Source of the DNA: an uncultured Pelagibacteraceae bacterium
GTDB taxonomy: Bacteria > Pseudomonadota > Alphaproteobacteria > Pelagibacterales > Pelagibacteraceae
Direction of reading: 5' to 3'
Assembly: GCA_902526645.1 (NCBI GenBank)
Contig: CABZLS010000003.1
Coordinates: 20,773-84,772 of the forward strand
DNA: 64,000 bases
Shown here: positions 9,897 to 61,902 of the stretch, piece by piece
How positions within the stretch are numbered: position 1 is the first letter of the stretch
Layout: every line of letters starts with the position of its first letter
Made by a program: the position numbers and the translations under genes
The notes under the pieces: generated by a model
What the model saw: only the letters and a program-made list of their open reading frames with translations
The model's database searches: none
What the model was told of the DNA's origin: nothing

Positions 9897-10409
9897 TTAA
9901 AATTTTTTGAAAAAATTAAACATATAACTATTTGCCCCAGGATTTTTATCTCCTAAACTAGCGTTAGACAAATGATTATAGGATAATCCTAACTGACTTT
10001 GCATTGGAAGTTCTAAAGATAGTTGTATTTCACTTTTAAATTCTAATGCGTGACCTAAATCTTTTCCATTACCTTTATTATAATATCCAGGTGCAAAACT
10101 TGGAGTTAAATTCAAAAATCCAACTTTATATTGAGCTTGAACACCGGTATAAAAATATGATGCATTATCTGCTGTTATCATTGCTCCAGTAATTGGAGAA
10201 AGATTTCCTAAAAAGGTATCTCTATTTAAGTCTTCGTTTTGATGTTGAAGACCGATTAATGTTGATCGTTTTCCATTATCACTGAAATCAAACATGCCAG
10301 TATAAATATTAAATTCAGTGTTTTTATCATTTAATTTAATTTCATCGGCAATTGATGAAAAGTTAATAAATAAAAAAATAACTAATAATTTTAATCTTAA
10401 AAATTTCAT
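9897..10409 (-). CDS. Acyloxyacyl hydrolase / PagL-like lipid A 3-O-deacylase outer-membrane beta-barrel
   Basis: Signal peptide, alternating beta-strands, EFKSEIQL, HLSNA (His-x-Ser-Asn) motif, C-terminal Phe. Confidence 0.7.
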   Translation of the reverse strand: MKFLRLKLLVIFLFINFSSIADEIKLNDKNTEFNIYTGMFDFSDNGKRSTLIGLQHQNEDLNRDTFLGNLSPITGAMITADNASYFYTGVQAQYKVGFLNLTPSFAPGYYNKGNGKDLGHALEFKSEIQLSLELPMQSQLGLSYNHLSNASLGDKNPGANSYMFNFFKKF

Positions 10410-10422
10410 ATTTAAAATATAC

Positions 10423-10788
10423 TTAGTTTTTACGAATAATAAATAATTTAAATATTAAAACGCCACCAATTACAAACAGTAAAATGGGTAATAACCATAA
10501 AAAGTAGGTTTTTTCATCAAATTCTGGATCAAATAATATCCACTGACCGTATTTATCTTTAAGATAATCATAAATTTCTTTTTCCGCTAAACCATCATCT
10601 AATTTTTTTTTAACTAAAAGTTTCAAACTATTAGCAAATTCAGTATCTGAATCATAGACTGATTGTCCTTGACAAACTAAACATCTTAAATTTTTTGTAA
10701 TTTTATATTCTAAATCATTTTGTTGAGCATGGCTTGAACAAAAATTAAATAGTAATAGAAATATAAATATAAATTTTAAATACCTCAT
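10423..10788 (-). CDS. ccmH: Cytochrome c maturation protein CcmH
   Basis: LRCLVCQGQSVYDS motif, YGQWILFDP. Confidence 0.92.
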   Translation of the reverse strand: MRYLKFIFIFLLLFNFCSSHAQQNDLEYKITKNLRCLVCQGQSVYDSDTEFANSLKLLVKKKLDDGLAEKEIYDYLKDKYGQWILFDPEFDEKTYFLWLLPILLFVIGGVLIFKLFIIRKN

Positions 10789-11303
10789 TTTATTATCTTT
10801 TTAATTTCCTTGACATGAGTATCATCCAACGGTCCTATTATTTTTCTGATTATAATATTCTTTCTTATTAAATATGTTTCAGGTACTCCATATGCACCCC
10901 AATCAATTGCTATTATTCCTTTAGGATCTAAAAAAATAATATCATAGGGATTTCCTAGTTCATTTAAAAAATTATATGCACTTTGCTTTTTATCTTTGTA
11001 GTTAAGTCCAACTATTTTTATATTTTTTTCATTTGAAAGATCTTTTAAAAAGATATGTTCATCTTTACATGGCACACACCATGAAGACCAAATATTCATC
11101 AAATAAAATTGATTATCTTTAAAAATTTCTGCTGAATTTAATTCTTCTGAGCTATTAAATAATTTTGCACTAAAATTTGGGATTTTTTTATTAATATTAC
11201 TTTTAGGAATATAAATATTAGGATTTTGTAAACCTTTATAAAATAAAATAAAAATAATAATTAATAGTAAAGATATAATTATCGTTATGCTCTTATTTTT
11301 CAT
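10785..11303 (-). CDS. ccmG: Thiol:disulfide oxidoreductase CcmG/DsbE
   Basis: WSSWCVPC, GLNYKD, GAYGVPETY motifs. Confidence 0.92.
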   Translation of the reverse strand: MKNKSITIIISLLLIIIFILFYKGLQNPNIYIPKSNINKKIPNFSAKLFNSSEELNSAEIFKDNQFYLMNIWSSWCVPCKDEHIFLKDLSNEKNIKIVGLNYKDKKQSAYNFLNELGNPYDIIFLDPKGIIAIDWGAYGVPETYLIRKNIIIRKIIGPLDDTHVKEIKKIIK

Positions 11304-13167
11304 TTTTTTTTAAAATGCTTATCATTCCACCTAAAGTTATCATTAATACTGATATCCAAATCCAAATCATTAATGGTTTAAATTGATACCTAATATTCAA
11401 ATATTCCTGATTTTGAACAAAATTAATTGTCATAAATTTATCAGAAAATAAACTTGTTTTAATATCAGCTTCACTAGTAACAATATTTGGTTGATTATAA
11501 ATTCTTAATTCTGGTTTCATAACCTGAATTGTACCATCAGAATTTTCAACAATAAATTTTCCAACAAAAGAATCGAAATTTTTTTCTTTTTTTTGGTTAA
11601 TATTTTCAAAATAAATTTTAAATTTTTCAGATTGAAAAGTTTCTCCTACTTTTAAATTTGTTACTACCTCACTAGAAAGAATGTTATTAAAAATAATACT
11701 TAGTAAAAATAAACTAAAACCTAAATGTGCTATATTTTGAGATATATTGATGAATCTTTTTTTTAATAAATCTTTTAAAGTAATAAAAAATAAATAAAAG
11801 GTAGAGGAAACTAGAATAGTATTTAGAAGAAATTTAACTTCTAAAGTTTTTATAATAAAAATTGATAATAATAAAGAAATTATAAAGAAAACTATCAAGT
11901 TAGTCTTATCAGATATATCAGATTTAATCCATTTCAACTTAGGACCAATAGTCATTGCAAGCACAAAAGGAATTAAAAAGGGAATTATCAATTTATGATA
12001 AAAAGGCGGTCCAATAGATATTTTTTCTGATGTTATAACGTCTAAAAAAATTGGATATACTGTCCCAATTAAAACAACAGATAGAAAATACATCATAAAC
12101 CAATTATTTATTATTATTGATGTTTCTTTGCTAATGAGAAATAAAGAGTTTTTATTACTAACCTCGTTTTTATGGAAAAAGAAAAAAATAAATAACGATA
12201 AAAAAATTAAAGAAAAAAGAAAAATTAAAATAAACAAACCTCTTTCTGGATCATTTGCAAAAGTGTGAACTGAGTTTAATATTCCTGATCTAACTAAGAA
12301 AGTACCTGACATACTTAATGTAAACGTAGTGATTGACAAAATGATTACCCAAGAAGTTAATTGTAATCTTTTTTCCAAAACTAAAATACAATGAATTAGT
12401 GTTGTCAAAGCAAACCAAGGCATTAGAGATACATTTTCAACAGGATCCCAGAACCAAAATCCACCCCAACCCAATTCATAGTAGGCCCAAATAGAACCGA
12501 GCAAAATTCCTAGAGTTAAAAAAATCCAAGATATCAAAACCCATACTTTTATATGCTTAGCCCATTCTTTAGATATATAATTAACTGACATTGCAGCAAG
12601 TGCTGATGAAAAAATAATAGATGTTCCAACATATCCTAAATATAAAATTGGTGGATGAATTGCTAATAATGGGTCTTGTAAAATTGGATTTAATCCTAAA
12701 CCCTCTTTAGGGATTGGAAAAATATAGTTAAAAGGACTTGAAGTTTTTAACAAAAAGATAAAAAAACCGATAATTATTATTTCCTGAAATAATAAAGTTA
12801 ATATTCTATACTGAGTTAGTTGTTTGCCTGATTTTAAAATAAATAAAAAAATAAATAATGTAAGTACAAGCAACCAAAGCAATAAACTTCCCTCATGGTT
12901 CCCCCATGATCCAGAAATCTTATAAAACAATGGTTTTGTTGTATGAGAGTGATTAAAAACAGTCTCATTACTAAAGTCAGAATTTATAAAAGAAATTATC
13001 AATCCTAAAAAACTAATCAATACAAGAAAAAATTGAAGAAAAGTAAACGGTAGAATTTTTTTGTCCAATTCATCATAATTTCTAAAATTTCTAATAGAAA
13101 AAAAAATTATAAAAAAAGATGAACAAACGCCAAAAACTAAAGCATAAAAACCAATTAAACTTGCCAA
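11293..13167 (-). CDS. ccmF: Heme lyase CcmF
   Basis: WGNHEGS, LNPILQDP..IHPP, WAYYELGWGGFWFWDPVEN (WWD domain), SVHTFA; TTG start. Confidence 0.95.
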   Translation of the reverse strand: MASLIGFYALVFGVCSSFFIIFFSIRNFRNYDELDKKILPFTFLQFFLVLISFLGLIISFINSDFSNETVFNHSHTTKPLFYKISGSWGNHEGSLLLWLLVLTLFIFLFILKSGKQLTQYRILTLLFQEIIIIGFFIFLLKTSSPFNYIFPIPKEGLGLNPILQDPLLAIHPPILYLGYVGTSIIFSSALAAMSVNYISKEWAKHIKVWVLISWIFLTLGILLGSIWAYYELGWGGFWFWDPVENVSLMPWFALTTLIHCILVLEKRLQLTSWVIILSITTFTLSMSGTFLVRSGILNSVHTFANDPERGLFILIFLFSLIFLSLFIFFFFHKNEVSNKNSLFLISKETSIIINNWFMMYFLSVVLIGTVYPIFLDVITSEKISIGPPFYHKLIIPFLIPFVLAMTIGPKLKWIKSDISDKTNLIVFFIISLLLSIFIIKTLEVKFLLNTILVSSTFYLFFITLKDLLKKRFINISQNIAHLGFSLFLLSIIFNNILSSEVVTNLKVGETFQSEKFKIYFENINQKKEKNFDSFVGKFIVENSDGTIQVMKPELRIYNQPNIVTSEADIKTSLFSDKFMTINFVQNQEYLNIRYQFKPLMIWIWISVLMITLGGMISILKKNEK

Positions 13168-13170
13168 AAT

Positions 13171-13590
13171 TTATTTCTCCCCTAGTGCTTCCTTAACTTC
13201 AGGAGGCATATAATTTTCATCATGTTTAGCTAAAATTTTAGTAGCTAAGAAAAAATTTTTATCTTTCAGATAACCTTCAGCAACAACACCCTTGCCTTCT
13301 TCAAAAAGATTTGGAACAACTCCAGAATAGGTAACATATATTTCATTTTTTAGATCAGTAATTATGAAATTTATTTCATCAGAGTTTATTGAAATAGAAT
13401 TTTTTTTTACCATACCACCAACTCTAATTTTGTTATTTTCAATTTCTGAAATATTCTTAATTTCAGATGGTGATTGAAAATAAATAACATTTTGTTCAAG
13501 AGATTTTAAAATTAAAAATATAGATAATGATAGTATAATTAATATTAGTAATATGTATAAAACTCTTAATTTAACTTTTCGACCATACAT
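13171..13590 (-). CDS. ccmE: Heme chaperone CcmE
   Basis: [31 protein letters not shown] (heme-binding His/Tyr). Confidence 0.95.
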
Positions 13591-13600
13591 GGCTTAAAGT

Positions 13601-13828
13601 TTAAATAATTGAACTATTAGATAATATCTCTTTATTAATACTTTGCAATTTAGCAGATGATGCTTTTTCTGAATCTAAAGTTCCAAATTTTAATTTGAAT
13701 TTTTCTCTCTCTCTTTTATATTGAAGTTTTATAACTGCATAAAGTGATATAAAGTTAAAAAGAGTAAATATAAATGCTGACCACACGTAAATACCGTATC
13801 CATCCATATTTATTAATTCGTTAATCAT
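13601..13828 (-). CDS. ccmD: Heme exporter protein CcmD
   Basis: 75 aa, MDGYGIYVWSAF followed by one TM and a basic tail; position between ccmC and ccmE. Confidence 0.85.
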   Translation of the reverse strand: MINELINMDGYGIYVWSAFIFTLFNFISLYAVIKLQYKREREKFKLKFGTLDSEKASSAKLQSINKEILSNSSII

Positions 13829-14532
13829 AATCTATCTAAACCTTTATTCTTAATTTTTATCAGTTCTGTATTATATTTCATCAAAAAAATTAAGAGTGAA
13901 AAAAGAGCAAATGCCGCAGTCATTATCATTAATGGAAATAACATTGAAGAATGAATTGAAGATTTTGATAAAATATTTATTGAAGCAGGTTGATGGAGTG
14001 TGTTCCACCAATCAACAGAATACTTTATAATTGGAACATTTATAATTCCTAAAATTGTAATCAAACAAGTAATTTTAAATACTTGCTCTTTATCTTGATA
14101 GATTCTCCAAGCTAATAAATATAATCCATAGAATAATGCCAAAATTAACATTGAAGTAATCCTGGCATCCCAAGCCCACCAGGTTCCCCAGGTAGGCTTC
14201 CCCCAAATTGAACCTGTTACCAATGCAATAATATTAAAAATAAAACCTGATGGAGCAAGACTTTTAGAGATAAGAAAAAAATTCTTTATTTTAAAGATGT
14301 AACCGACAATTGACAACAAAGTAATTGATGAGAATATTCCCAGGGTGATCCAAGCAGCTGGTACATGAACATACATGATCCTGACTGAATGACTTTGTTT
14401 ATAGTCTTCAGGTGATAAAACTAAGGATTCAATTAAACCAATTGTAAAAATAATTAAAAATAGTGCTAAAACATATTTTGGTGCTTTAGAAGTTATAGAA
14501 AAAATCTTATTTGGTTCAAAATATTTAAACAT
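13825..14532 (-). CDS. ccmC: Heme exporter protein CcmC
   Basis: YVHVPAAW, GSIWGKPTWGTWWAWDARITS, WWNTLHQ motifs. Confidence 0.95.
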   Translation of the reverse strand: MFKYFEPNKIFSITSKAPKYVLALFLIIFTIGLIESLVLSPEDYKQSHSVRIMYVHVPAAWITLGIFSSITLLSIVGYIFKIKNFFLISKSLAPSGFIFNIIALVTGSIWGKPTWGTWWAWDARITSMLILALFYGLYLLAWRIYQDKEQVFKITCLITILGIINVPIIKYSVDWWNTLHQPASINILSKSSIHSSMLFPLMIMTAAFALFSLLIFLMKYNTELIKIKNKGLDRL

Positions 14533-19644: not shown

Positions 19645-20103
19645 ATGGAATCATTTAAAAATTGGATGAGAGATACAGCAAATATTTTGTTTGATGATAG
19701 TAAAAACGATTTAAGGTCATTACCAAAAACTGTAAGGTTGCAAATCCTATTAGTCCTAAGTTTTATTTGGACCACTGTTTTTAGTTTATATGTATTTTCA
19801 TATACAACTTTTGTATTTGGCTGGACTGGACTTTTTTTAGCACACATTGGATTGATATTTGCAGTATATTTAACATTTAAACATTTTCATAGAGCTGAGG
19901 AAAATTCGGCCAGTGTTTTTAAAACAAAAAATTTTGACCCTTTTAAAATAATGGTGCTTGTTTTTGTGATTGTATTTATATTTGTTTTTTCAAAAGGTAT
20001 TGAAGTATTAACAAGTCCGAATCCATATTCTTATTCAATTCCTTATGAAGGTTCTTCAAAATCAGTATTTGAAAAATGGCTACCATTTAGTAAAGATAAA
20101 TAA
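19645..20103 (+). CDS. Hypothetical membrane protein (about 3 TM)
   Basis: 152-aa ORF with hydrophobic segments, first gene of a tightly spaced plus-strand run. Confidence 0.7.
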   Translation: MESFKNWMRDTANILFDDSKNDLRSLPKTVRLQILLVLSFIWTTVFSLYVFSYTTFVFGWTGLFLAHIGLIFAVYLTFKHFHRAEENSASVFKTKNFDPFKIMVLVFVIVFIFVFSKGIEVLTSPNPYSYSIPYEGSSKSVFEKWLPFSKDK

Positions 20104-20108
20104 ATTAT

Positions 20109-20489
20109 ATGGAAAAAATAGCAAAAAATTTACAACTTATTTTAATGGTTATCATTTTAATAAGCACAGTTATTGCAGTCGGTATAGAAATGTACAAAAT
20201 GTTTGAGAATAGATCTGTTACTCTTGCAGATTTGTTATTGATGTTTCTTTACTTAGAAGTGCTTGCAATGGTGAGGGTTTTTTGGAACCAACAATCAATT
20301 AGTATTACCCTGCCATTATTAATTGCAATTACTGCTTTAGCACGATTTATTATTCTTCAAGGTAAAGAAATGGACCCAACTGCATTAGTTTATGAAGCTA
20401 TTGCTATAGTTCTAATTGCTGGTGCGATTGTTATTCTAAGATTAAGACATAGTGATAAGCTCGGTCTAAAGAAAAAAAAATCAAAATAA
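20109..20489 (+). CDS. Phosphate-starvation-inducible PsiE family protein
   Basis: LADLLLMFLYLEVLAMV, PLLIAITALARFIIL motifs. Confidence 0.85.
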   Translation: MEKIAKNLQLILMVIILISTVIAVGIEMYKMFENRSVTLADLLLMFLYLEVLAMVRVFWNQQSISITLPLLIAITALARFIILQGKEMDPTALVYEAIAIVLIAGAIVILRLRHSDKLGLKKKKSK

Positions 20490-20495
20490 ATCAAA

Positions 20496-21635
20496 ATGAA
20501 ATTTGAAGCCTCTAAGGCTGCGGCCTTAAATAAATTAAACAATTTTGTTGAAAAAAACCTTTTTGAATATTCCAAATTAAGGAATTTTGATTTTGGACCA
20601 GAAAACAGAACAAATATATCTGGTTTATCTCCATATATAACCCATGGAGTAATCAATGAAAAAGAGGTGATAGAAAAATCACTAAGCAAATTTTCTTTTT
20701 CAAAAAATGAAAAATTTATTCAAGAAGTTTTGTGGCGAACATATTGGAAGGGTTGGTTAGAATTACGACCAAACGTTTGGACAGATTACTTAGTTGAGTT
20801 GAATAAAATTCGAGAAGAATATAAAGATAACCAAAATTACAAAAATGCAATAGATGGAAAAACCGATATTGAATGTTTTAATTTTTGGGTAACAGAGCTT
20901 AAAGAAAATAATTATTTACATAATCATACTAGAATGTGGTTTGCTAGTATTTGGATTTTTACATTAGAATTACCCTGGCAATTAGGAGCAGAATTTTTTA
21001 TGCAACATCTTTACGATGGTGACTCTGCATCTAATACTCTTGGTTGGAGATGGGTAGCCGGAATCCAAACACAGGGAAAACACTATCTTGCAAACGAGTG
21101 GAATATTAAAAAATTCACTAATAATAGATTTAATAATATCAAATTAAACGAAAACGCTCCTCCAAAAGTTTCTGAAAAAACTTACTCAATAGTTAAACAA
21201 GATTTTAGCAATAAAAATATAGATAATGAAAATCTTTTTATTTTTGAAAATAGTTTATCATTTGAAACTACAGATTTTCAAAATGATAAATTTAAAAAAA
21301 TCTATATAATTTCAAATAAAAATGAAAATAGATCTATCAAACTAAGTGAAAGAGTTATTAAATTTAAAACTCTTTTAGTAGATGATCAAAAACAAAGATT
21401 AGAAAATAATTCTATTAATTGTGAGGTGGTAGATATAAGTGAGATTAAAAATATAAACGAAAAAGTTATAGCGTTATATCCAACAGTCGGTGAAAACCTG
21501 GATTATTTAAATTCAAATAATTTAAAAATAGATTTTTTATATAGAAAACTTGATCAATATTCATGGCAATATTGTAATAAAGGTTTTTTTAATTTTAAAA
21601 ATTATATTCCTAAAATAATTACAACTTTTAATTAA
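20496..21635 (+). CDS. Short photolyase-like protein (FAD-binding domain at N-terminus, no antenna domain)
   Basis: SGLSPYITHG, FIQEVLWRTYWKGW, YLHNHTRMWFASIW, HLYDGDSASNTLGWRWVAG lie within the first 200 aa; the Rossmann antenna domain is absent. Confidence 0.85.
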   Translation: MKFEASKAAALNKLNNFVEKNLFEYSKLRNFDFGPENRTNISGLSPYITHGVINEKEVIEKSLSKFSFSKNEKFIQEVLWRTYWKGWLELRPNVWTDYLVELNKIREEYKDNQNYKNAIDGKTDIECFNFWVTELKENNYLHNHTRMWFASIWIFTLELPWQLGAEFFMQHLYDGDSASNTLGWRWVAGIQTQGKHYLANEWNIKKFTNNRFNNIKLNENAPPKVSEKTYSIVKQDFSNKNIDNENLFIFENSLSFETTDFQNDKFKKIYIISNKNENRSIKLSERVIKFKTLLVDDQKQRLENNSINCEVVDISEIKNINEKVIALYPTVGENLDYLNSNNLKIDFLYRKLDQYSWQYCNKGFFNFKNYIPKIITTFN

Positions 21636-21853
21636 AACCACCTAAACATCCCGATGATTCCTGCTGTAGCATAAAAAAATTGTAAAAATAATATTCCTCT
21701 GTGACCACCCCTATAGGCCCAAATTCCAATTAAAATTGCGGAAATAAGTAACAAACAAAAACCAAAAAATTCTATGCCAATATTCATAGCTACAAATAAT
21801 GAATATAGTATTGCAGTTATAACTCCTGCCCATTCAAAAATTTTATTATTCAT
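21632..21853 (-). CDS. Small 3-TM membrane protein, PnuC-half-like
   Basis: 73 aa; FEWAG at helix 1 and LQFFY....IIGMFRW at the C-terminus. Confidence 0.65.
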   Translation of the reverse strand: MNNKIFEWAGVITAILYSLFVAMNIGIEFFGFCLLLISAILIGIWAYRGGHRGILFLQFFYATAGIIGMFRWF

Positions 21854-21858
21854 ACTTT

Positions 21859-21996
21859 TTATTCGTTTTCCAACTTGAATTTTTTTCTATTATAAATTTT
21901 TTTTTTGTTTTTTACTATTTTATTTCTGAGCATTGGTGAACTTAACAATTTAGCCATTGGATTTTTCTTCTTTAATTTTTTTCTTTTTTTGCTCAT
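21859..21996 (-). CDS. 45-aa basic protein, ArfA-like (missing from ORF track)
   Basis: Hand translation: MSKKRKKLKKKNPMAKLLSSPMLRNKIVKNKKKIYNRKKFKLENE*; fills the gap between two co-oriented genes (28-nt and 5-nt spacers). Confidence 0.7.
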   Translation of the reverse strand: MSKKRKKLKKKNPMAKLLSSPMLRNKIVKNKKKIYNRKKFKLENE

Positions 21997-22024
21997 ATGA
22001 GTTTTTAAAATTAGTATACAAAAT

Positions 22025-22714
22025 TTATCTTGCCAATTTTATGAAAATATCACCCATGCCAGCATCTAAATTTTCTAAAGGTGTATTGTTTCTTAAATTA
22101 CAATACCTACCAGTAACTTGGTGGGTTTTAACAAAATCTATTTCGTCTTTTTCACAACTTTTTCCATTATGCAACAAACCTATAACTATTCGATCATCAA
22201 GACTATAAACCTCTGATTTATTAATTTTTTTACCATCGCAAAAATAATCTTTATTTACTCTGTTTGGAAAATCCTGTTTATCGCAAGGATTTTTGATTGT
22301 TAAAACATAAAATTCCTTCAAGCCATCTTTAAATTCATATTTCATTTTTTGAGTTTCAGAGTACTTCATAAGATCACATGAACATGGAACACAACATCTA
22401 TAATAATTTCCACAAATTTTTTTTTTAGTTTTAGTTTCTTCAACAAATAAAAATTCTGTGTCGCTATTTGGATCAATCAAAGATCCAGAAACTGCACAGT
22501 ATAATTTATTAAATTCGATAAAATCCTTATAAGTAATTTTTTTATCTATAATATATTTAAAAAACTTAGGTCCTGCCGCATTTCTATTTTTATCAGGAAA
22601 TATTCTTGACCAATCAGTAATAAGCTCCTTGTGATAGTTTTTTTCTTCAGCAAACGATTTAAGCTGAAATAATATTAAAAATATAATCAAAGAAAGATTT
22701 AAAAATTTTTTCAT
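22025..22714 (-). CDS. Hypothetical secreted Cys-rich protein (10 Cys)
   Basis: Signal peptide ending SFA-EE; CGNYYRCCVPCSCD cluster; ATGA overlap with the upstream gene. Confidence 0.8.
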   Translation of the reverse strand: MKKFLNLSLIIFLILFQLKSFAEEKNYHKELITDWSRIFPDKNRNAAGPKFFKYIIDKKITYKDFIEFNKLYCAVSGSLIDPNSDTEFLFVEETKTKKKICGNYYRCCVPCSCDLMKYSETQKMKYEFKDGLKEFYVLTIKNPCDKQDFPNRVNKDYFCDGKKINKSEVYSLDDRIVIGLLHNGKSCEKDEIDFVKTHQVTGRYCNLRNNTPLENLDAGMGDIFIKLAR

Positions 22715-24141
22715 TTTTGCTTTATGGTAATTGTTTGATTTAACTCACTTACATTGAATAATTTTTTTGTTCCATTGGTCCATTTAACCTCTACTTTAAA
22801 ATTTTTTTCATTTTTTCTAATTCCATAATGTGCCACAGGCTCCATTTGGCATAAGTAACCAGATCCTGCATCAATAGTTTTGGAATGCTTTCTTTTATTA
22901 GTTATTAATGTTACCGTAGCTCCTCTCGCCGGGGCACCATATTTATTTAATGGTTTAATTCTTAGGTATTTATTTTCTTTGTCAACTTTTGCTTTATACA
23001 AAGTTAATGGTTGTTCTTTACTTTCACCACGAGCAACTAACAATTCTAAAACTCCGTCATTATCAATATCTGCGACTGCTGCCCCAGTTCCATACCCTTT
23101 AGCTTCGAGACCAACTTGAAAATTTATCTGTTCAAATTTTCCATCATCTTTAATACGAAATAATTTATTTGGTTCTGCTATATTGTTCATAAAAACTTCA
23201 TCAAAACCATCGTTATCAAAATCTGCAGAAATAATTGTTCTAATTCTAGAAGGTTTATCAAAATCTTTATTTCCTATGTCTTTAAATTCGTTTTTTTCCA
23301 AAACCCAGGCTCTATGATATCCAAGCCAATTACCACTCAGAATATCTAATCTGCCTCGATAATATATGTCTGATAAAGCTGTACCTCTCCCATTTTGGAT
23401 TGAATCATCTACTCTATAATCAAATGCTACATCTTCAAAATTTCCATTATTATTTTTATAAAGATAATTTGCTCCCCTCTCATTTGCTGCAAAAACATCT
23501 GCTCTATCTGACAAGATATGTCCTGATACCACTGCTCTTCCACCAGTGATACTATCAAGATTTAAACTCTGAGCCTTATCTTTAATCAATTCATCTTCAA
23601 TCTCATAAAATCTGGTTGGGCCTCCGTAATTTGCTACATAGACTCCATATTCACCATCTCCCTTTCTATCTACACAAACTACAGATCTTCCTGCTGTTAA
23701 ATTTAGGTTTTCTTTATTTTTTTCTAATTCGAATAAATCAAAATAATTATTATCTTCTATATCTAATAATCTATCTGAATATTTTTTATCCCCACTATAT
23801 GTATCTGTATTTAGAAAGTAAATTTCTTCAAAGCCATCTTTATCGATATCACACGCAGCAACTCCTATAGTTCTTTTTAAAGTATCTGAAAAAATTTTTT
23901 GCTGATTTAGATTCTTTAATTTTCCATCCTGAAAAGATAAAGCTAAGTTAGGATAACCAAATCCTGTTACTAAAAACTCATAATTTCCATCCATATTAAA
24001 ATCTGTTACTGAGATACCATAGCTGAGCCTTTTTTCATTATTTTCAATAATTTTTGATAGATCCTCAAAAAATTCTGCACGAGTATTATTTGTAAGAATT
24101 ACAAAAAAAATTAAAATCAAATATCGAGTAAGATTTTTCAT
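22711..24141 (-). CDS. CRTAC1-family protein (FG-GAP beta-propeller plus ASPIC/UnbV domain)
   Basis: Repeated DxDxDG loops (DFNMDG, DIDKDG, DRKGDG, DFDNDG, DIDNDG); C-terminal GATVTL...IDAGSGYLCQMEPVAHYG. Start moved to ATG 24141, which overlaps the DUF2256 stop and gives a signal peptide MKNLTRYLILIFFVILTNNTRA. Confidence 0.88.
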   Translation of the reverse strand: MKNLTRYLILIFFVILTNNTRAEFFEDLSKIIENNEKRLSYGISVTDFNMDGNYEFLVTGFGYPNLALSFQDGKLKNLNQQKIFSDTLKRTIGVAACDIDKDGFEEIYFLNTDTYSGDKKYSDRLLDIEDNNYFDLFELEKNKENLNLTAGRSVVCVDRKGDGEYGVYVANYGGPTRFYEIEDELIKDKAQSLNLDSITGGRAVVSGHILSDRADVFAANERGANYLYKNNNGNFEDVAFDYRVDDSIQNGRGTALSDIYYRGRLDILSGNWLGYHRAWVLEKNEFKDIGNKDFDKPSRIRTIISADFDNDGFDEVFMNNIAEPNKLFRIKDDGKFEQINFQVGLEAKGYGTGAAVADIDNDGVLELLVARGESKEQPLTLYKAKVDKENKYLRIKPLNKYGAPARGATVTLITNKRKHSKTIDAGSGYLCQMEPVAHYGIRKNEKNFKVEVKWTNGTKKLFNVSELNQTITIKQK

Positions 24142-24266
24142 TTTTTTGATGAACATTTTTTTGAGCAATACTTAACCTTTTCCCAATTGAGTCTCCATTT
24201 CCTTCTCCATTTAAATGGTCTTTGACATATTGGACAAACCTTAATTGGTAAATTTTCTTTTTTCAC
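24138..24266 (-). CDS. DUF2256-type 42-aa zinc-finger protein (missing from ORF track)
   Basis: Hand translation from GTG: MKKENLPIKVCPICQRPFKWRRKWRLNWEKVKYCSKKCSSKK*; overlaps both neighbours (TAGTG, ATGA). Confidence 0.88.
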   Translation of the reverse strand: MKKENLPIKVCPICQRPFKWRRKWRLNWEKVKYCSKKCSSKK

Positions 24267-25756
24267 TAAACTGTGTTTTCTTTAATGAATTTATCTGCAG
24301 CCGACAAAATTAATTTTTTTCTATCCGCTTTCATTTTATCAAAAATTCTTACCATCATTGAAAGTCTTGGATTTTTTAAAAAAAACTTTCTATTACGATC
24401 AATAAATCTCCAGTAAAGTCCGTCCATCGTGTTACACCACTCTCCTTTTTTAAAATCCATCATTTTCATAAAATAACTTGATCCACAAATGTATGGTTTG
24501 GTTGCAAAAATTCCCCCATCACTAAATAACCCCATACCATAAACATTAGGCACCATTACCCAATCTGAGGAATCTACAAACATCTCCATGAACCATTTGT
24601 AAACAATATTAGGTTTTATTTCACAAAGGTTCATTATGTTTGATAAAATCATTAATCTTTCAATGTGATGAGACCATCCAAAATTTAATGCATTTTTAAT
24701 TGCATAATCTAATGGAGGTAAACCTGTCGTTCCATCATACCATGACTTTTTCATTTTACGATTTTGTTTGAAAAAATTTCCAGTTTCCATTTCATTTGAG
24801 TAACTTTGATAAATGCCTCTCATAAATTCTCTCCATCCTATAACCTGACGAACATAGCCTTCTAAAGAATTTAACCTGATTTTTTTACTCTTATGAAAAT
24901 CTAAAACTTTTTTGATAATAAATTCAGGTGTAATTAGACCAAGGTTAATATAAGGACTTAAAGCGCTGTGAAACAAAATATTATCTTTTTGATCAACTGC
25001 GTCTTCGTAATCGCCAAATAAATTAGATTTTTCTTTAATGAAAAAATTCAATAATTTGACTACATCATTATACTCTGTAGCAAACCAAAAATTTTTGGTT
25101 GTTCCTGGATGATCTTTAAATAATTTTTCAATAATAGGTTTCAATTTTTTTGTATGACTTGTTTCATTAATTTTAGGAAACTTTGGAATAGAAATATCTT
25201 TTGGTAACTTATTTCTATTATCTTCATCAAAACTCCATTTACCTCCAATTGGGTTTCCATCTGAACCCATTAATATCCCTGATTTTTTTCTGACATCTTT
25301 ATAAAAAGTTGCCATGAAAGGTTTTTTTGATTTAGATAAATATTGTTTAAATTCCTCTCTTGAATTTAAAAACATTGGAGTTTGAACAACATTCCATTTT
25401 ATTTTTTCTTTTTTAAGAAATTGATTAATTTTTTTTTCAAAAAATTTGTCCTCAATCTCAAAGCTTGAAATTTCTTTTATTTTTTTTGAACTAATTACTT
25501 TTTTTAATTTCTTTAAATAATCGTCTTTAAATTCTTTATCCTCAATTCTAAAGTACTCTAATTTAAACTTATCTTTTTTAAGGGTTTCTGCGTGCGAACG
25601 CATTGATGATAAGAAAAGAAGTATTTTATTTTTATGATGTTTTTCATAAGTGCATAACTGGTAATCTTCAGCCATAAAAAACAGGTGGTCTTTTTTGAAG
25701 CGGTCCAAGTATTTTGATGGAAATAATTGGTTACCCAGTATAAAAAATAACTTCAT
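24266..25756 (-). CDS. Bacterial (6-4) photolyase / cryptochrome of the FeS-BCP (PhrB) clade, lacking Fe-S ligands
   Basis: ILGNQLF, HHKNKILLFLSSMR, GGKWSFDEDNR, FGDYEDA, LFHSALSPYINLG, RQVIGWREF, WSHHIERLM, WVMVPNVYGM, KPYICGSSY motifs. Confidence 0.9.
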   Translation of the reverse strand: MKLFFILGNQLFPSKYLDRFKKDHLFFMAEDYQLCTYEKHHKNKILLFLSSMRSHAETLKKDKFKLEYFRIEDKEFKDDYLKKLKKVISSKKIKEISSFEIEDKFFEKKINQFLKKEKIKWNVVQTPMFLNSREEFKQYLSKSKKPFMATFYKDVRKKSGILMGSDGNPIGGKWSFDEDNRNKLPKDISIPKFPKINETSHTKKLKPIIEKLFKDHPGTTKNFWFATEYNDVVKLLNFFIKEKSNLFGDYEDAVDQKDNILFHSALSPYINLGLITPEFIIKKVLDFHKSKKIRLNSLEGYVRQVIGWREFMRGIYQSYSNEMETGNFFKQNRKMKKSWYDGTTGLPPLDYAIKNALNFGWSHHIERLMILSNIMNLCEIKPNIVYKWFMEMFVDSSDWVMVPNVYGMGLFSDGGIFATKPYICGSSYFMKMMDFKKGEWCNTMDGLYWRFIDRNRKFFLKNPRLSMMVRIFDKMKADRKKLILSAADKFIKENTV

Positions 25757-25783
25757 ATTTAAATATAACTAATAAAATTTTTT

Positions 25784-26494
25784 ATGTCAGAAAAATATCT
25801 TATTTTTGGTGCGACAGGATCAATCGGTTCTAGTTTGGCTGAACAATTAGTAAACTCAGGAAATTCAGTTCATTTAGTTGGTAGAAGTGAAAGTGAAACT
25901 AAAAATGTTTCTGAAAAATTAGGTTGTGCATATACAATAGCTGATGTTTTACAAGATGGATTTGTAGATAAGGTTAAAAATGATATTTCTGATATAAAAG
26001 GCATCGCATATTGTGTGGGTTCAATTGATTTGAAACCTTTAAGAATGGTTAGTGAACAAGATTTTAATAAGTGTATGAAACTAAATCTATATTCAGCAGT
26101 TGAGGTTATAAAAGGCTACCAAGATAATTTGAAAAAAAATAAAGGTTCGGTAGTTTTATTTTCCACAGTTGCCGCTCAAAGAGGTTTTACAAATCATGCA
26201 ATAATAGCCTCTACAAAAGCTGCTGTGGAGGGTCTAACAGTTTCTTTAGCTGCAGAATTTGCTCCTAATATAAGAGTAAACTGTATTGCGCCTAGTTTGA
26301 CTAACTCAAAAATCGCTGAGCCAATGTTAAAAAATAAAGCACTAGCAGATGGAATAGCTAAAGCTCATCCTTTAAAAAGATTGGGCGAAGGAAAAGATTC
26401 TGCCTCTCTTGCAAAATTTCTTATTACTGATGATAGCTCCTGGGTCACAGGTCAAATTATTGCTGTTGATGGCGGCAGGTCAAAACTTTCTTAA
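25784..26494 (+). CDS. Atypical short-chain dehydrogenase/reductase
   Basis: GATGSIG, YCVGSI.LKP, FSTVAA, IASTKAAVEG, IRVNCIAPSL, DGG motifs. Confidence 0.88.
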   Translation: MSEKYLIFGATGSIGSSLAEQLVNSGNSVHLVGRSESETKNVSEKLGCAYTIADVLQDGFVDKVKNDISDIKGIAYCVGSIDLKPLRMVSEQDFNKCMKLNLYSAVEVIKGYQDNLKKNKGSVVLFSTVAAQRGFTNHAIIASTKAAVEGLTVSLAAEFAPNIRVNCIAPSLTNSKIAEPMLKNKALADGIAKAHPLKRLGEGKDSASLAKFLITDDSSWVTGQIIAVDGGRSKLS

Positions 26495-26495
26495 A

Positions 26496-27560
26496 GTGAG
26501 AAGAATAGTTGTTACATTTTTTTTATTTTTATTTTATGTAAATTATTCTTTTGCAGAAAATTTAAAATTTAAAAAGATTGTAGATTTAGAAGGTCCCTGG
26601 GGATCTACTTTTATTAATGATAAAGAATTATTAATTACAGAAAAAAGTGGAAAAATTAAATTAATAGATCTTAATACTAAAAATATTTCTGTAATAAATC
26701 ATAATCTTAACTTGCTAGAACATGGGCAGGGTGGTTTATTAGATATTCTTTTTAAAAATAATTTTGTTTATGTTTCATACACAGAAAATAGAGGAGATTG
26801 GAAAACTAGTACTTCAATAGCAAAATCAAAATTTGATAAAAAAGATTTATTTTTTAAAAATATTTTTCAAGCAAATCCACCGATTGATTCAGGATATCAT
26901 TTTGGATCAAGATTAACCATCAAGGATAACTATCTTTATGCGTCTGCTGGAGAAAGAGGACAAGGTATGATAGCACAAGATCCCACAAAACATCCTGGCA
27001 GTATTATTAGGATTAATACTGATGGAAGTATTCCAAAAGATAATCCAAAATTTGAGGGTAAATCAAATTGGTTACCTGAAATTTATCAAATAGGTATTAG
27101 AAATCCTCAAGGTCTAACTTTATCTCCATTTGATGGAAAAATTTATATGAGTAATCACGGAGCAAGAGGCGGAGATTGGTTTGGTGAAGCTAAAAAAGGT
27201 GAAAATTATGGATGGAAAATTTTGGGTTGGGGTGGAACAAATTATTCAGGTATTCCTATTGGTCCTAAATGGAAACCAGGATTTACAAAAGCGATACAAT
27301 ATTGGGTTCCATCTATAGCAACAAGTGCAATAACTATATACAAAGGTAAAGAGTTCAATGATTGGAATGGACATGCTTTAATTACTTCACTAAAAGACAA
27401 ATCCCTGAGAAAATTAATATTTGATGACTTATCGAACGTAAAAGAAGATATTATTTTTAAAAATGAAATTGGAAGAATAAGAGACATACAAGTACATCCA
27501 AGTAACGGAAAAATTTATTTTTTAGCAGGAGACAAATTGTGGCTGATGGAAAAAAATTAA
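26496..27560 (+). CDS. PQQ-dependent sugar dehydrogenase (YliI/aldose sugar dehydrogenase family)
   Basis: PWG, GQGGLLD, HFGSRL, GIRNPQG, NHGARGGD, NYGW, GRIRD motifs; GTG 26496 chosen as start because it gives a signal peptide. Confidence 0.88.
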   Translation: MRRIVVTFFLFLFYVNYSFAENLKFKKIVDLEGPWGSTFINDKELLITEKSGKIKLIDLNTKNISVINHNLNLLEHGQGGLLDILFKNNFVYVSYTENRGDWKTSTSIAKSKFDKKDLFFKNIFQANPPIDSGYHFGSRLTIKDNYLYASAGERGQGMIAQDPTKHPGSIIRINTDGSIPKDNPKFEGKSNWLPEIYQIGIRNPQGLTLSPFDGKIYMSNHGARGGDWFGEAKKGENYGWKILGWGGTNYSGIPIGPKWKPGFTKAIQYWVPSIATSAITIYKGKEFNDWNGHALITSLKDKSLRKLIFDDLSNVKEDIIFKNEIGRIRDIQVHPSNGKIYFLAGDKLWLMEKN

Positions 27561-39892: not shown

Positions 39893-40552
39893 ATGAAAAA
39901 AATACAAATTTCACCATCAATTTTATCAGCTGATTTTAGTCAATTAGGTAATGAAATAAAGAAGTTAGAGGATTCAGGGGCAGACATGATTCATGTTGAT
40001 GTGATGGATGGACATTTTGTTCCCAATTTAACTATTGGGCCACCTGTCATAAAGGCTCTAAAAAAACAATCATCAATGATTTTTGATGTACATTTAATGA
40101 TTTCACCTGTTCATAAATATATTCAAGCTTTTTCAGATGCGGGCGCAGATATAATTACAATTCATCCGGAAGCTACTGAAAATTTAGAGTCATCAATTAT
40201 CAAAATTAAAAGTTTAAATAAAAAGGCTGGTGTATCTTTAAATCCTGAGACTAATGTTGATGTTATTACTGATTATCTGGAAAAAATAGATTTAGTTTTG
40301 ATAATGAGTGTGAATCCTGGTTTTGGTGGACAGAAATTTATGCCAAAAGTTCTTGATAAGATAAAAAAACTAAAAAAAATTCAGGAAAAAGAAAATTATG
40401 ATTTTGATATTGAGATAGATGGAGGTATTAACTTTGAAAATTCAAAGCAAGCAATACAAGCAGGTGCAAACATTTTAGTCTCAGGAACTACAATTTTTAA
40501 AAGTAATAATGGAGATATAAAAAAAAATATTGAATTATTGAGATCAAAATAA
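39893..40552 (+). CDS. rpe: Ribulose-phosphate 3-epimerase
   Basis: SPSILSADF, HVDVMDGHFVPN, DVHLM, MSVNPGFGGQ, DGG motifs. Confidence 0.97.
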   Translation: MKKIQISPSILSADFSQLGNEIKKLEDSGADMIHVDVMDGHFVPNLTIGPPVIKALKKQSSMIFDVHLMISPVHKYIQAFSDAGADIITIHPEATENLESSIIKIKSLNKKAGVSLNPETNVDVITDYLEKIDLVLIMSVNPGFGGQKFMPKVLDKIKKLKKIQEKENYDFDIEIDGGINFENSKQAIQAGANILVSGTTIFKSNNGDIKKNIELLRSK

Positions 40553-40556
40553 TTTC

Positions 40557-43699: not shown

Positions 43700-44031
43700 A
43701 TTTTGTCTATTTTAGCTGCTAATATAAAATCATTTTCGGAAAGACCTTTTATAGCATGAGTTGTTATATTAATTTTTGCATAACCCCAACCAAACGATAT
43801 TTCTGGATGGTGTCCTTCCTCTTCTGATATTTGACCTACTTTATTAACAAATTTTTGACTTTCTAAAAAATTCTTAAAAGTAAATTTTTTTTCCAAAAAA
43901 AATATATTTTCATTATTTTTAATGATATCCCAACCATCTACTTTTTTTTGATATTTATGAATTTCTGAGATATCAAATGGAATTACTCCACCTTCACATG
44001 GTACACATTTTTTTTTAATTAAGTCTGACAT
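43696..44031 (-). CDS. phhB: Pterin-4-alpha-carbinolamine dehydratase
   Basis: CVPCEGG, EEGHHPEI, TTHAIKGLSENDFILAAKID motifs. Confidence 0.9.
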   Translation of the reverse strand: MSDLIKKKCVPCEGGVIPFDISEIHKYQKKVDGWDIIKNNENIFFLEKKFTFKNFLESQKFVNKVGQISEEEGHHPEISFGWGYAKINITTHAIKGLSENDFILAAKIDKI

Positions 44032-44932: not shown

Positions 44933-44936
44933 AAAA

Positions 44937-45011
44937 TGGAGCGGGCAAAGGGGGTCGAACCCTCGACCTTCTCGTTGGCAACGAGACGCTCTACCACTGA
45001 GCTATGCCCGC
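44937..45011 (-). tRNA. tRNA-Gly (GCC)
   Basis: Full cloverleaf GCGGGCA...TCTCG-TTGCCAA-CGAGA...GGTTCGAC...TGCCCGCTCCA with encoded CCA. Confidence 0.97.
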
Positions 45012-45022
45012 ATATGTGAGAC

Positions 45023-45051
45023 ATTATAGTTAGCGGTTTTTTTTAATTCAA
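45023..45051 (-). promoter_or_regulatory. sigma70 promoter of tRNA-Gly
   Basis: Minus strand TTGAAT-N17-TATAAT ending 11 nt before the tRNA. Confidence 0.8.
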
Positions 45052-45084
45052 GCAATATTAAATATGATATATTTAAAAAATATT

Positions 45085-45732: not shown

Positions 45733-45734
45733 GT

Positions 45735-46808: not shown

Positions 46809-46871
46809 AATTATTTTAATTTTAACAATAAAAATTAGATGATACAAAGTGATAAATTTGATTCTGCACAT

Positions 46872-61901: not shown

Positions 61902-61902
61902 A

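What the first reader, a model, noticed from the sequence alone, without database searches (positions are those of the whole stretch)
21632..25756. Best candidate for an undescribed system: six-gene coupled operon joining a (6-4) photolyase, a zinc-finger, CRTAC1, a Cys-rich secreted protein, an ArfA-like peptide and a half-PnuC
Seen: photolyase stop and DUF2256 start overlap (TAGTG, 24264-24268); DUF2256 and CRTAC1 overlap (ATGA, 24138-24141); CRTAC1 and the Cys-rich gene overlap (ATGA, 22711-22714); then 28-nt and 5-nt gaps to the 45-aa basic ORF and the 73-aa membrane ORF. No terminator is visible. Established: DUF2256 commonly accompanies bacterial (6-4) photolyases. Inference: a surface-ocean UV-stress module acting at three levels: DNA repair, rescue of ribosomes stalled on photodamaged or truncated mRNA, and an exported Ca-binding propeller with a disulfide-rich partner (envelope protection or aggregation), with possible flavin/vitamin uptake. 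I do not know this combination as a described system.
Basis: partly seen in the sequence, partly recalled or inferred. Interest (0 to 1): 0.78.

Follow-up and report, generated by a model that had tools for sequence, protein, structure and literature searches.

The report
Photolyase genes plus swappable passenger genes
The six tightly packed genes in this SAR11 (Pelagibacter) genome are real, but they are not one UV-defence system: a conserved photolyase pair sits next to a slot whose gene content varies between relatives, and the real novelty is an exported pair, a CRTAC1-like protein and an uncharacterised cysteine-rich partner, that stay neighbours in over 100 marine bacterial species without any photolyase.

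Summary
All six minus-strand ORFs, their overlaps and gaps, and the lack of terminators are confirmed. The gene identities mostly hold. They are a PhrB-type photolyase, DUF2256, a true CRTAC1 homologue (E 7.5e-98 to PDB 9etn), a secreted Cys-rich protein with no Pfam family and no fold match (AF2 pLDDT 93.8), a short ArfA-like peptide (hhalign 94%), and a 3-TM protein weakly like the N-terminus of PnuC.

In 76 related SAR11 loci, the stretch between DUF2256 and a convergent second photolyase-like gene ranges from 147 to 4640 bp.
- CRTAC1 and the Cys-rich gene: 29/76 loci, always together.
- ArfA-like gene: 9/76.
- 3-TM gene: 64/76.
- The commonest occupant, a GATase-like gene, is absent from the window.

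In 109 of 120 other marine loci (mostly alphaproteobacterial), CRTAC1 and the Cys-rich gene are neighbours in divergent, convergent or co-directional order, never with a photolyase in the 8-kb piece fetched. One protein fuses both.

Gene overlaps are the norm in this 94%-coding genome. So the locus is a photolyase core plus a flexible slot. The undescribed unit is the CRTAC1 plus Cys-rich pair. The ArfA-like gene has phage relatives.

The parts
24266..25756 (-). PhrB-type ((6-4)/FeS-BCP family) photolyase, 496 aa. Conserved core gene of the locus. It probably lacks the Fe-S cluster.
   Evidence: Pfam DPRP (2e-64) + FAD_binding_7. Best PDB matches are A. tumefaciens (6-4) photolyase PhrB, E 3e-83. 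In that alignment PhrB C350 aligns to Pro, C438/C441 fall in a 10-residue deletion and only C454 is kept. Present by design in all 80 loci.
24138..24266 (-). DUF2256 zinc-ribbon protein, 42 aa. Fixed partner of the photolyase.
   Evidence: Pfam DUF2256 E 4e-18, 65.7 bits against a cut-off of 25. CPIC...CSKKC motif read from the sequence. Found downstream of the photolyase, on the same strand, in 76/76 loci; a few loci carry an inserted gene between the two.
22711..24156 (-). CRTAC1 homologue: FG-GAP Ca-binding beta-propeller plus ASPIC/UnbV domain, with a Sec-type signal peptide. First gene of the two-gene cassette.
   Evidence: Pfam FG-GAP_3 and UnbV_ASPIC. E 7.5e-98 to PDB 9etn 'Cartilage acidic protein 1', residues 33-464 against 19-488. 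The conserved start is the ATG at 24156. N-terminus MFIKKMKNLTRYLILIFFVILTNNTRA/EFF. Present in 29/76 loci, always with the next gene.
22025..22714 (-). Cys-rich exported protein ('cys229'), 229 aa. Unclassified family and obligate neighbour of CRTAC1.
21859..21996 (-). Short ArfA-like basic peptide, 45 aa. A flexible gene with phage relatives.
   Evidence: The only PDB sequence hits are ArfA. hhalign against an ArfA alignment gives probability 94.1%, E 1.2e-7 over 32 columns. JGI names two homologues ArfA. Purifying selection: variable sites by codon position 19/15/32, synonymous 4149 against nonsynonymous 2675 codon differences. Present in 9/76 loci. 38 viral contigs encode relatives. No Pfam ArfA hit.
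21632..21853 (-). 3-TM membrane protein, 73 aa, weakly like the first three helices of PnuC. The most conserved of the downstream genes.
   Evidence: Pfam NMN_transporter E 0.011, profile positions 2-66 of 175, below the cut-off. 25/30 family members hit it, best 2.8e-4. JGI names one homologue PnuC. No PDB sequence hit to PnuC. The AF2 model is uninformative. Present in 64/76 loci. Its stop overlaps the stop of the convergent gene by 4 nt.
20496..21635 (+). Convergent photolyase-like gene ('phr2'), 379 aa. It forms the far boundary of the variable slot.
   Evidence: FAD_binding_7 only. Residues 4-197 align to residues ~206-395 of class I CPD photolyases. The remaining ~180 aa have no hit. Present in all loci whose contig reaches that far.
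25762..25790 (-). Promoter-like site just upstream of the photolyase start, inside the 5' end of the divergent SDR gene. A candidate for the only promoter of the string.
   Evidence: CTGACA-17-TATATT, 10 of 12 matches. Only 27 bp separate the divergent start codons at 25756 and 25784. This is a consensus match only, and promoter-like sites are not enriched in the region (25 found against 35 expected).

Best explanation
The locus is a mosaic, not a single system.

(1) A conserved core: a PhrB-type photolyase and its DUF2256 zinc-ribbon partner repair UV photoproducts. This function is inferred from homology.

(2) A flexible-gene slot lies downstream on the same strand, closed by a convergent photolyase-like gene. 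Related SAR11 genomes carry from zero to five or more passenger genes there. Because this streamlined genome has almost no intergenic DNA and no terminators, whatever sits in the slot is probably transcribed by read-through from the photolyase promoter. That step is inferred. Metatranscriptome contigs do cross every junction that could be laid.

(3) In this window the passengers are three separate things.
(a) A two-gene exported module: a CRTAC1-like Ca-binding beta-propeller plus a Cys-rich protein of no recognisable fold. I propose they form a periplasmic or surface complex in which the Cys-rich subunit supplies a metal- or disulfide-based site. Fasciclin is an occasional third partner, which points to a cell-envelope or surface role rather than DNA repair.
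(b) A short phage-type ArfA-like peptide. It would recruit RF2 to ribosomes stalled on truncated mRNA, if it works like ArfA.
(c) A 3-TM PnuC-like protein. It would have to oligomerise like a SemiSWEET to transport a small nucleoside or vitamin-like molecule.

Shown: gene identities, variable slot content, strict pairing of CRTAC1 with the Cys-rich gene, and the pair's independence from the photolyase. Inferred: co-transcription, complex formation and all biochemical functions.
For: Slot variability. In 76 SAR11 loci picked by photolyase similarity, the photolyase-to-phr2 interval ranges from 147 to 4640 bp. It shows 27 different gene orders. The commonest is DUF2256-GATase-3TM (27 loci).

Pairing. 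CRTAC1 and cys229 are both present in 29 loci, both absent in 47, and never alone.

Independence from the photolyase. 120 loci found by the YRCCWPCxCD motif hold cys229 relatives (most 40-55% identical, a few distant ones 32-36%). Of these, 109 have an adjacent CRTAC1 (49-69% identical): 39 divergent, 52 convergent, 18 co-directional. None has a photolyase, DUF2256, ArfA-like or 3-TM gene in the 8-kb piece. No other neighbour gene is shared across these arrangement classes.

Fusion. P0458 (859 aa) carries a cys229 domain at 31-229 and a CRTAC1 domain at 246-735.

A third partner. Fasciclin recurs with the pair both in the slot (8 loci, opposite strand) and elsewhere (10 loci).

Export. Both proteins have signal-peptide-like N-termini.

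Genome packing. Overlaps are the norm and there are no terminators.

RNA. Metatranscriptome contigs cover all six genes, the 45-aa gene only at its 5' end. They span the junctions at 22711, 24138 and 24266. Contigs diverge exactly at the 3-TM gene's start (loose ends at 21853/21854), as expected for a population-variable slot.

ArfA-like gene. PnuC-like gene.
Against: - All 80 closest relatives of this particular cys229 (78-99% identical) lie in this same slot after photolyase-DUF2256 on the same strand. The window's exact six-gene order recurs in 18 of them. So within this lineage the linkage to the photolyase is stable, and a selected co-expression cannot be excluded.
- Contig-based RNA evidence cannot separate one transcript from several, or RNA from contaminating DNA.
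- No complex prediction or experiment supports a CRTAC1/cys229 interaction. The single fusion comes from one cluster of unknown organism.
- In 4 Planctomycetota/Gammaproteobacteria loci cys229 relatives lack a neighbouring CRTAC1. In 4 Planctomycetota/Chloroflexia loci CRTAC1 relatives lack cys229. In 8 giant-virus contigs cys229 is fused to DUF2237 instead. The pairing is therefore lineage-restricted.
Confidence: 0.75

Rival explanations
1. The six genes are one dedicated surface-ocean UV-stress operon acting on DNA repair, ribosome rescue and envelope protection, with vitamin uptake.
For: One strand, overlapping or near-abutting genes and no terminator. RNA contigs cross the junctions. The ArfA-like and PnuC-like identities are supported. 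The exact order recurs in 18 of the 80 closest relatives.
Against: Gene content downstream of DUF2256 varies freely among close relatives. The opposite-strand fasciclin insert breaks the string in 8 loci. Homologous CRTAC1/cys229 pairs elsewhere never accompany a photolyase. Overlaps are generic in this genome. No riboswitch or other known RNA element ties the genes together.
Confidence: 0.08
2. A weaker, regulatory version. The slot is an expression platform. Genes landing behind the photolyase inherit its light- or UV-linked transcription, so selection keeps passengers there that are useful in bright surface water, without any shared mechanism.
For: This cys229 lineage is found only in this slot, in 80/80 loci. 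Nearly all passengers are co-oriented with the photolyase. The 3-TM gene is kept in 84% of loci. There is no room for separate promoters or terminators.
Against: There are no expression data under light or UV. In RNA contigs the photolyase word depth is much higher than that of the passengers, which is confounded by population frequency. Passengers include a GATase-like gene and DUF4174, with no obvious link to light. Fixed location is equally explained by vertical inheritance with gain and loss through recombination in the flanking core genes.
Confidence: 0.25
3. The 45-aa gene is not a ribosome-rescue factor. It is a small partner, leader or regulatory peptide of the 3-TM gene, and the two form a unit.
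For: The 45-aa gene is followed by the 3-TM gene after 5 nt in 12 of 12 metagenomic places and in most loci. It misses Pfam ArfA. It lacks the GKGS residues of the ArfA KGKGS loop.
Against: hhalign probability is 94% to ArfA over its functional core. The only PDB hits are ArfA. Phage relatives occur without any 3-TM gene. Three loci have the peptide without the 3-TM gene, and most loci have the 3-TM gene without the peptide.
Confidence: 0.15

Closest known systems
PhrB / FeS-BCP (CryPro) bacterial (6-4) photolyases with an adjacent DUF2256 gene
   Same: Same two-domain architecture and full-length similarity to A. tumefaciens PhrB (E 3e-83). DUF2256 lies downstream on the same strand in 76/76 relatives.
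   Different: Three of the four PhrB Fe-S cysteine ligands are missing. Substrate specificity was not tested.
CRTAC1 (cartilage acidic protein 1; PDB 9etn) and bacterial ASPIC/UnbV FG-GAP proteins
   Same: FG-GAP propeller plus ASPIC/UnbV domain, E 7.5e-98 over nearly the whole protein, secreted.
   Different: The protein ends after the ASPIC domain: the match stops at residue 488 of the 586-residue chain, and there is no Pfam EGF hit. Here it is strictly paired with a Cys-rich partner gene that the CRTAC1 papers I retrieved did not mention.
ArfA (alternative ribosome-rescue factor A), including short phage-encoded forms
   Same: An N-P-x-A-x-L-L-x-x-P-x-x-R ... K-N-K-K ... Y-x-R-K core aligned to ArfA residues 10-43. 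Close to the Roseobacter phage CRP-212 and Brevundimonas phage forms. A pelagiphage ArfA is reported in PMC12753301.
   Different: A 2-residue deletion removes GKGS. No Pfam PF03889 hit. It is a complete 45-aa ORF with its own stop codon, and no hairpin was seen. To my knowledge (not tested here), ArfA has been described mainly in beta- and gammaproteobacteria.
PnuC nicotinamide riboside transporters, with SemiSWEET as the half-size precedent
   Same: Three predicted TM helices. A consistent weak match to PnuC profile positions 2-66 in 25/30 family members.
   Different: Only 73 aa against about 7 TM helices in PnuC. The score is below Pfam's cut-off. There is no PDB sequence hit. Oligomerisation and substrate are unknown.
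Hypervariable regions or flexible genomic islands of SAR11 and other streamlined marine bacteria
   Same: A fixed chromosomal position between conserved genes, with presence/absence and replacement of cassettes among close relatives.
   Different: Very small (0-4.6 kb). Passengers are co-oriented with, and abut, a conserved operon. No integrase or repeat was looked for or seen.

Membership tests
FeS-BCP / PhrB-type (6-4) photolyase | DPRP N-terminal domain plus FAD-binding helical domain, with full-length similarity to PhrB/CryB | tested here: met
   Pfam DPRP 2e-64 and FAD_binding_7. PhrB E 3e-83 and CryB E 1.5e-72.
FeS-BCP / PhrB-type (6-4) photolyase | Four cysteines that bind the [4Fe-4S] cluster (PhrB C350, C438, C441, C454; residue numbers from my own knowledge of PhrB) | tested here: not met
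   In the alignment C350 aligns to Pro, C438/C441 lie in a 10-residue gap and only C454 aligns to Cys.
FeS-BCP / PhrB-type (6-4) photolyase | Light-driven repair of (6-4) photoproducts | not testable with these tools
   Needs an enzyme assay.
DUF2256 | Pfam PF10013 above the gathering score, with two CxxC-type pairs | tested here: met
   65.7 bits against 25. CPIC ... CSKKC in the sequence.
CRTAC1 family | FG-GAP repeats followed by an ASPIC/UnbV domain, with strong similarity to animal CRTAC1 | tested here: met
   (E 7.5e-98 to 9etn).
CRTAC1 family | C-terminal EGF-like Ca-binding domain of animal CRTAC1 | tested here: not met
   There is no EGF Pfam hit. The protein ends after UnbV_ASPIC at residue 472 of 476. 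The match stops at residue 488 of the 586-residue chain.
ArfA | Match to the curated family model (Pfam PF03889 or NCBIfam) | tested here: not met
   No ArfA hit at E <= 10 (Pfam) or E <= 1 (NCBIfam).
ArfA | Homology to ArfA over the ribosome/RF2-binding core | tested here: met
   hhalign probability 94.1%, E 1.2e-7. In the profile search the top six PDB hits are all ArfA, E 0.087-0.25.
ArfA | KGKGS loop | tested here: not met
   KNKKK-IYNRK replaces KNKKGKGSYMRK, a 2-residue gap. Phage relatives share this short form.
ArfA | RF2-dependent release of non-stop ribosomes | not testable with these tools
   Needs a biochemical or genetic assay.
PnuC (NMN_transporter, PF04973) | Score above the gathering threshold and the full set of about 7 TM helices | tested here: not met
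   16.2 bits against 27.3. Only profile positions 2-66 of 175 are matched. The protein is 73 aa.
PnuC (NMN_transporter, PF04973) | Reproducible similarity of the whole family to one PnuC repeat | tested here: inconclusive
   25/30 members hit, best E 2.8e-4. The family profile finds no PnuC in the PDB, and the AF2 model is uninformative.
Six-gene conserved operon or 'system' | The gene set is kept together across relatives | tested here: not met
   27 gene orders in 76 loci. The exact order was seen in 1/76 loci and in 18 of the 80 closest relatives.
CRTAC1 + cys229 two-gene module (proposed here) | Strict co-occurrence and adjacency across lineages and gene orientations | tested here: met
   29 loci with both and 47 with neither. 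80/80. 109/120 in three orientations. One fusion protein. Not met in the few Planctomycetota, Chloroflexia, Gammaproteobacteria and giant-virus cases.

The most novel reading that the evidence does not exclude
CRTAC1 and the cys229 protein form a previously undescribed two-component exported system. In it, a Cys-rich subunit with no detectable structural relative is the obligate partner of a bacterial CRTAC1, with fasciclin as an occasional third member. The family also occurs fused to CRTAC1 in one protein of unknown, possibly eukaryotic, origin, and fused to DUF2237 in giant viruses. If true, it would give a genetic handle on the molecular role of the CRTAC1 fold, which to my knowledge is still undefined even in animals. 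It would also define a new protein family in SAR11, one of the most abundant marine bacterial groups.
Probability: 0.5. Interest if true: 0.65.

Novelty: new variant of a known kind. Interest (0 to 1): 0.45.

Why it matters
Treating tight gene packing in streamlined genomes as evidence of a functional system is a recurrent trap. Here the comparison across about 280 loci shows that only two of the five junctions reflect conserved partnerships: photolyase with DUF2256, and CRTAC1 with cys229.

The positive result is a well-defined target. It is an abundant, strongly conserved, exported protein family with a confident model but no fold match. It is genetically locked to CRTAC1 homologues in SAR11, SAR116 and other marine Alphaproteobacteria.

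Two smaller leads also come out. One is a phage-type short ArfA in an alphaproteobacterium. The other is a one-repeat PnuC-like membrane protein kept beside two photolyase-family genes.

Tried and rejected
- The search for related loci with the diverse cys229 alignment failed because no stretch was conserved enough. A degenerate DNA motif was used instead.
- A YHS/TRASH-like treble-clef reading of the motif C73-x2-S ... CC-x-P-C-x-C-D came from memory.
- The AF2 model of the 73-aa protein folded as two long helices and was not used. Its family profile hit only an unrelated CtaJ chain.
- tblastn of the 45-aa peptide against GenBank phages found nothing, because of the low-complexity filter.
- The Rfam scan of 20000-27000 found nothing at E <= 1, so there is no known riboswitch ahead of the 3-TM gene.
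- Literature searches found no paper describing a bacterial CRTAC1 partner, a DUF2256 function, or this SAR11 slot.
- The listing of cluster members gave no organism for the fusion protein.


Full report
**Source and observation.** The window is a SAR11 (Pelagibacter) chromosome piece. Its GC content is 22-36%, and the closest loci are all Pelagibacteraceae single-cell or isolate genomes.
- a TAG/GTG 1-nt overlap at 24266;
- ATGA at 24138-24141;
- ATGA at 22711-22714;
- a 28-nt gap and a 5-nt gap.

The 73-aa gene's stop also overlaps, by 4 nt, the stop of a convergent photolyase-like gene (20496-21635). No terminator-like hairpin was found on either strand between 20400 and 26600.

There are two corrections.
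- The CRTAC1 start that is conserved in all relatives is the ATG at 24156 (MFIKK...). The ATG at 24141 is an Ile codon in most relatives.
- Tight packing carries little information here. About 94% of the window is coding, 24 of 54 same-strand neighbour pairs overlap, and 14 of 54 can have 1- or 4-nt stop/start overlaps.

**What the six genes are.**

(i) The 496-aa protein has DPRP + FAD_binding_7. It matches A. tumefaciens (6-4) photolyase PhrB over its full length (E 3e-83). In that alignment three of PhrB's four Fe-S cysteine ligands are missing.

(ii) The 42-aa protein is DUF2256 (E 4e-18).

(iii) The 481-aa protein is a true CRTAC1 homologue. It has FG-GAP_3 + UnbV_ASPIC and matches PDB 9etn 'Cartilage acidic protein 1' at E 7.5e-98. 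It has a signal-peptide-like N-terminus.

(iv) The 229-aa protein ('cys229') also starts with a signal-peptide-like segment.
- It has no Pfam or NCBIfam match and no PDB sequence match, even with a family profile.
- An exhaustive HMMER search found 349 representatives at E <= 1e-3.
- Their alignment has 19 invariant columns, including NRNAAG, YCxVSGS, YYRCCxPCxCD, DPC and GGMGDIF.
- AlphaFold2 gives a confident model, pLDDT 93.8 and pTM 0.86.

(v) The 45-aa basic peptide is a real gene under purifying selection. Across 34 distinct alleles, variable sites by codon position are 19/15/32, and synonymous codon differences outnumber nonsynonymous ones.
- Of 177,635 PDB sequences, the only hits below E = 1 are E. 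coli ArfA, both with the single sequence and with the family profile; the profile search adds one unrelated chain at E 6.5.
- A profile-profile comparison was run against an alignment of E. coli ArfA plus annotated and unannotated phage ArfAs. It gives probability 94.1%, E 1.2e-7 over 32 columns.
- JGI independently names two homologues ArfA.
- It lacks two residues of the KGKGS loop and misses Pfam PF03889.

(vi) The 73-aa protein has three hydrophobic segments. It gives a sub-threshold but reproducible hit to positions 2-66 of the PnuC profile, in 25 of 30 family members, best E 2.8e-4. JGI names one homologue PnuC. Neither a PDB profile search nor the AF2 model adds support.

**Test of the 'system': neighbourhood conservation.** Eighty SAR11 loci were fetched by photolyase similarity alone, at 85-95% identity. 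In the 76 that reach both boundaries, the interval from the photolyase stop to the convergent gene ranges from 147 to 4640 bp and shows 27 gene orders.
- DUF2256 is in 76/76 loci.
- The 3-TM gene is in 64/76.
- A 240-aa GATase-like gene that the window lacks is in 56/76.
- CRTAC1 and cys229 are in 29/76, always together.
- A DUF4174 gene is in 16/76.
- The ArfA-like gene is in 9/76.
- In 8 loci a fasciclin gene on the opposite strand lies between CRTAC1 and cys229, which cannot be one operon.
- In 2 loci DUF2256 directly abuts the 3-TM gene.
- In 3 loci nothing lies between DUF2256 and the convergent gene.

The window's order was seen in one of the 76 loci.

Searching from the other side, all 80 closest relatives of this cys229 (78-99% identical) sit in this same slot. 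The exact six-gene order recurs in 18 of them. It is therefore a lineage-specific state of a variable slot.

**The pair elsewhere.** A degenerate DNA motif for YRCCWPCxCD found 120 further loci. They come from Pelagibacteraceae, SAR116/Puniceispirillaceae, Rhodospirillaceae, other alphaproteobacterial single cells, and a few Planctomycetota and Gammaproteobacteria.
- In 109 of them a CRTAC1 homologue (49-69% identical) lies directly beside the cys229 homologue: 39 divergent, 52 convergent and 18 co-directional.
- In 7 more the match is at the edge of the fetched piece.
- In 4 (Planctomycetota, Gammaproteobacteria) there is no CRTAC1.
- None contains a photolyase, DUF2256, ArfA-like or 3-TM gene.
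- No other neighbour is shared across the arrangement classes.
- A fasciclin gene follows CRTAC1 in 10 of the divergent loci.

One representative (P0458, 859 aa) fuses a cys229 domain to a CRTAC1 domain. Its source organism is unknown.

Adjacency kept through three different gene orientations, together with a fusion, is classical evidence for a functional partnership. This partnership is independent of the photolyase. It is also lineage-restricted:
- four CRTAC1 homologues in Planctomycetota and Chloroflexia have no cys229 nearby;
- giant-virus MAGs carry cys229 fused to DUF2237, without CRTAC1.

**The two small genes.** The ArfA-like gene is followed after 5 nt by the 3-TM gene in 12 of 12 metagenomic contexts, whatever lies upstream. 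Relatives of the peptide, 37-76 aa with the same KKNP[IM]AK.L..P..R...[IV]..KK.Y.RK core, are encoded on 38 IMG/VR viral contigs. None of those carries any other gene of this locus. One of them carries a phage-type M15 peptidase. A published pelagiphage, HTVC027P, encodes an ArfA-domain protein (PMC12753301). The chromosomal copy therefore looks like a flexible, phage-related gene.

**Expression.** Marine metatranscriptome assemblies contain contigs covering all six genes, though for the 45-aa gene only its 5' end. Contigs cross the junctions at 22711, 24138 and 24266. Contigs diverge exactly at the start of the 3-TM gene, which mirrors the population-level variability. These are assembled contigs. 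They show presence, not transcript structure, and may include DNA. No known RNA element was found.

**Interpretation.** The best-supported reading is a conserved photolyase-DUF2256 core followed by a small flexible-gene slot. Its passengers are probably read through from the photolyase promoter, simply because there is no room for their own signals. The candidate promoter is at 25790-25762, and only 27 bp separate the photolyase from the divergent SDR gene.

Among the passengers, CRTAC1 + cys229 is a genuine and apparently undescribed two-gene exported module. I propose a periplasmic or surface complex with a cell-envelope role. The proposal rests on both signal peptides, the Ca-binding propeller, the invariant Cys/polar motifs and the recurring fasciclin partner. 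It remains an inference.

A weaker model, in which the slot acts as a light-linked expression platform, cannot be excluded without expression data.

**Novelty and score.** The locus type is known: a small hypervariable slot in a streamlined genome. The photolyase-DUF2256 pair is known. CRTAC1, ArfA and PnuC are known families, of which these genes are divergent or reduced forms. What is new is the strict CRTAC1-cys229 partnership and the cys229 family itself, which has no family model and no fold match. Interest is moderate, 0.45. The pair, if confirmed as a complex, would deserve about 0.65.

Noticed in passing
window 24266-25756 (-): The PhrB-type photolyase lacks three of the four Fe-S cluster cysteines of A. 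tumefaciens PhrB: C350 aligns to Pro, and C438/C441 fall in a 10-residue deletion. It is probably an Fe-S-free member of the 'FeS-BCP' family.
   Followed up: partly
window 20496-21635 (+): The convergent 379-aa gene has only the FAD-binding helical domain of class I CPD photolyases, and it sits at the N-terminus (residues 4-197). About 180 residues with no family match follow, and there is no N-terminal alpha/beta domain. The gene is conserved in all related loci. It may be a truncated or rearranged photolyase/cryptochrome.
   Followed up: partly
window 24138-24168 (-): The conserved CRTAC1 start (ATG 24156) lies inside the 3' end of DUF2256. In relatives with a DUF4174 gene in first position, that gene starts at the same place with the same first residues (MLKKMF...). 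Cassette exchange therefore seems to reuse one start region.
   Followed up: partly
L016, L080 and 54 other loci, between DUF2256 and the 3-TM gene: A 240-aa class-I glutamine-amidotransferase-like gene is the commonest occupant of the slot (56/76 loci). It is absent from the window.
   Followed up: partly
L038 13585-14058 (-); L092, L139, L141 and 7 more: A 157-aa fasciclin-domain gene recurs with the CRTAC1/cys229 pair. It lies on the opposite strand between them in the photolyase slot, and directly after CRTAC1 in other alphaproteobacteria.
   Followed up: partly
L336-L343 (giant-virus MAG contigs): cys229-family domains fused to DUF2237 are encoded in Nucleocytoviricota MAGs (55-95% identical to P0365). 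No CRTAC1 lies within 4 kb.
   Followed up: partly
L298-L335 (IMG/VR viral contigs): Thirty-eight viral contigs encode 37-76-aa relatives of the ArfA-like peptide. In L304 the match lies inside a larger low-complexity ORF in another frame, so some gene calls there are uncertain.
   Followed up: partly
window 25757-25783: Only 27 bp separate the divergent start codons of the photolyase and an SDR-family oxidoreductase (25784-26494). Both promoters must therefore lie inside coding sequence.
   Followed up: no
window 26409-27560 (+): The longest ORF of the PQQ-type glucose/sorbosone dehydrogenase-like gene overlaps the SDR gene by 86 nt from a TTG start. The true start is probably further downstream.
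   Followed up: no
window 10001-14000, 40001-48000, 58001-62000: These stretches have markedly lower GC (0.22-0.26 against about 0.30-0.35). They may be further flexible regions of this genome.
   Followed up: no
window 21887-21926: The read-laying tool refuses this A-rich stretch inside the 45-aa gene, so RNA evidence for the 3' two-thirds of that gene (21859-21929) and for its junction with the 3-TM gene could not be obtained.
   Followed up: no
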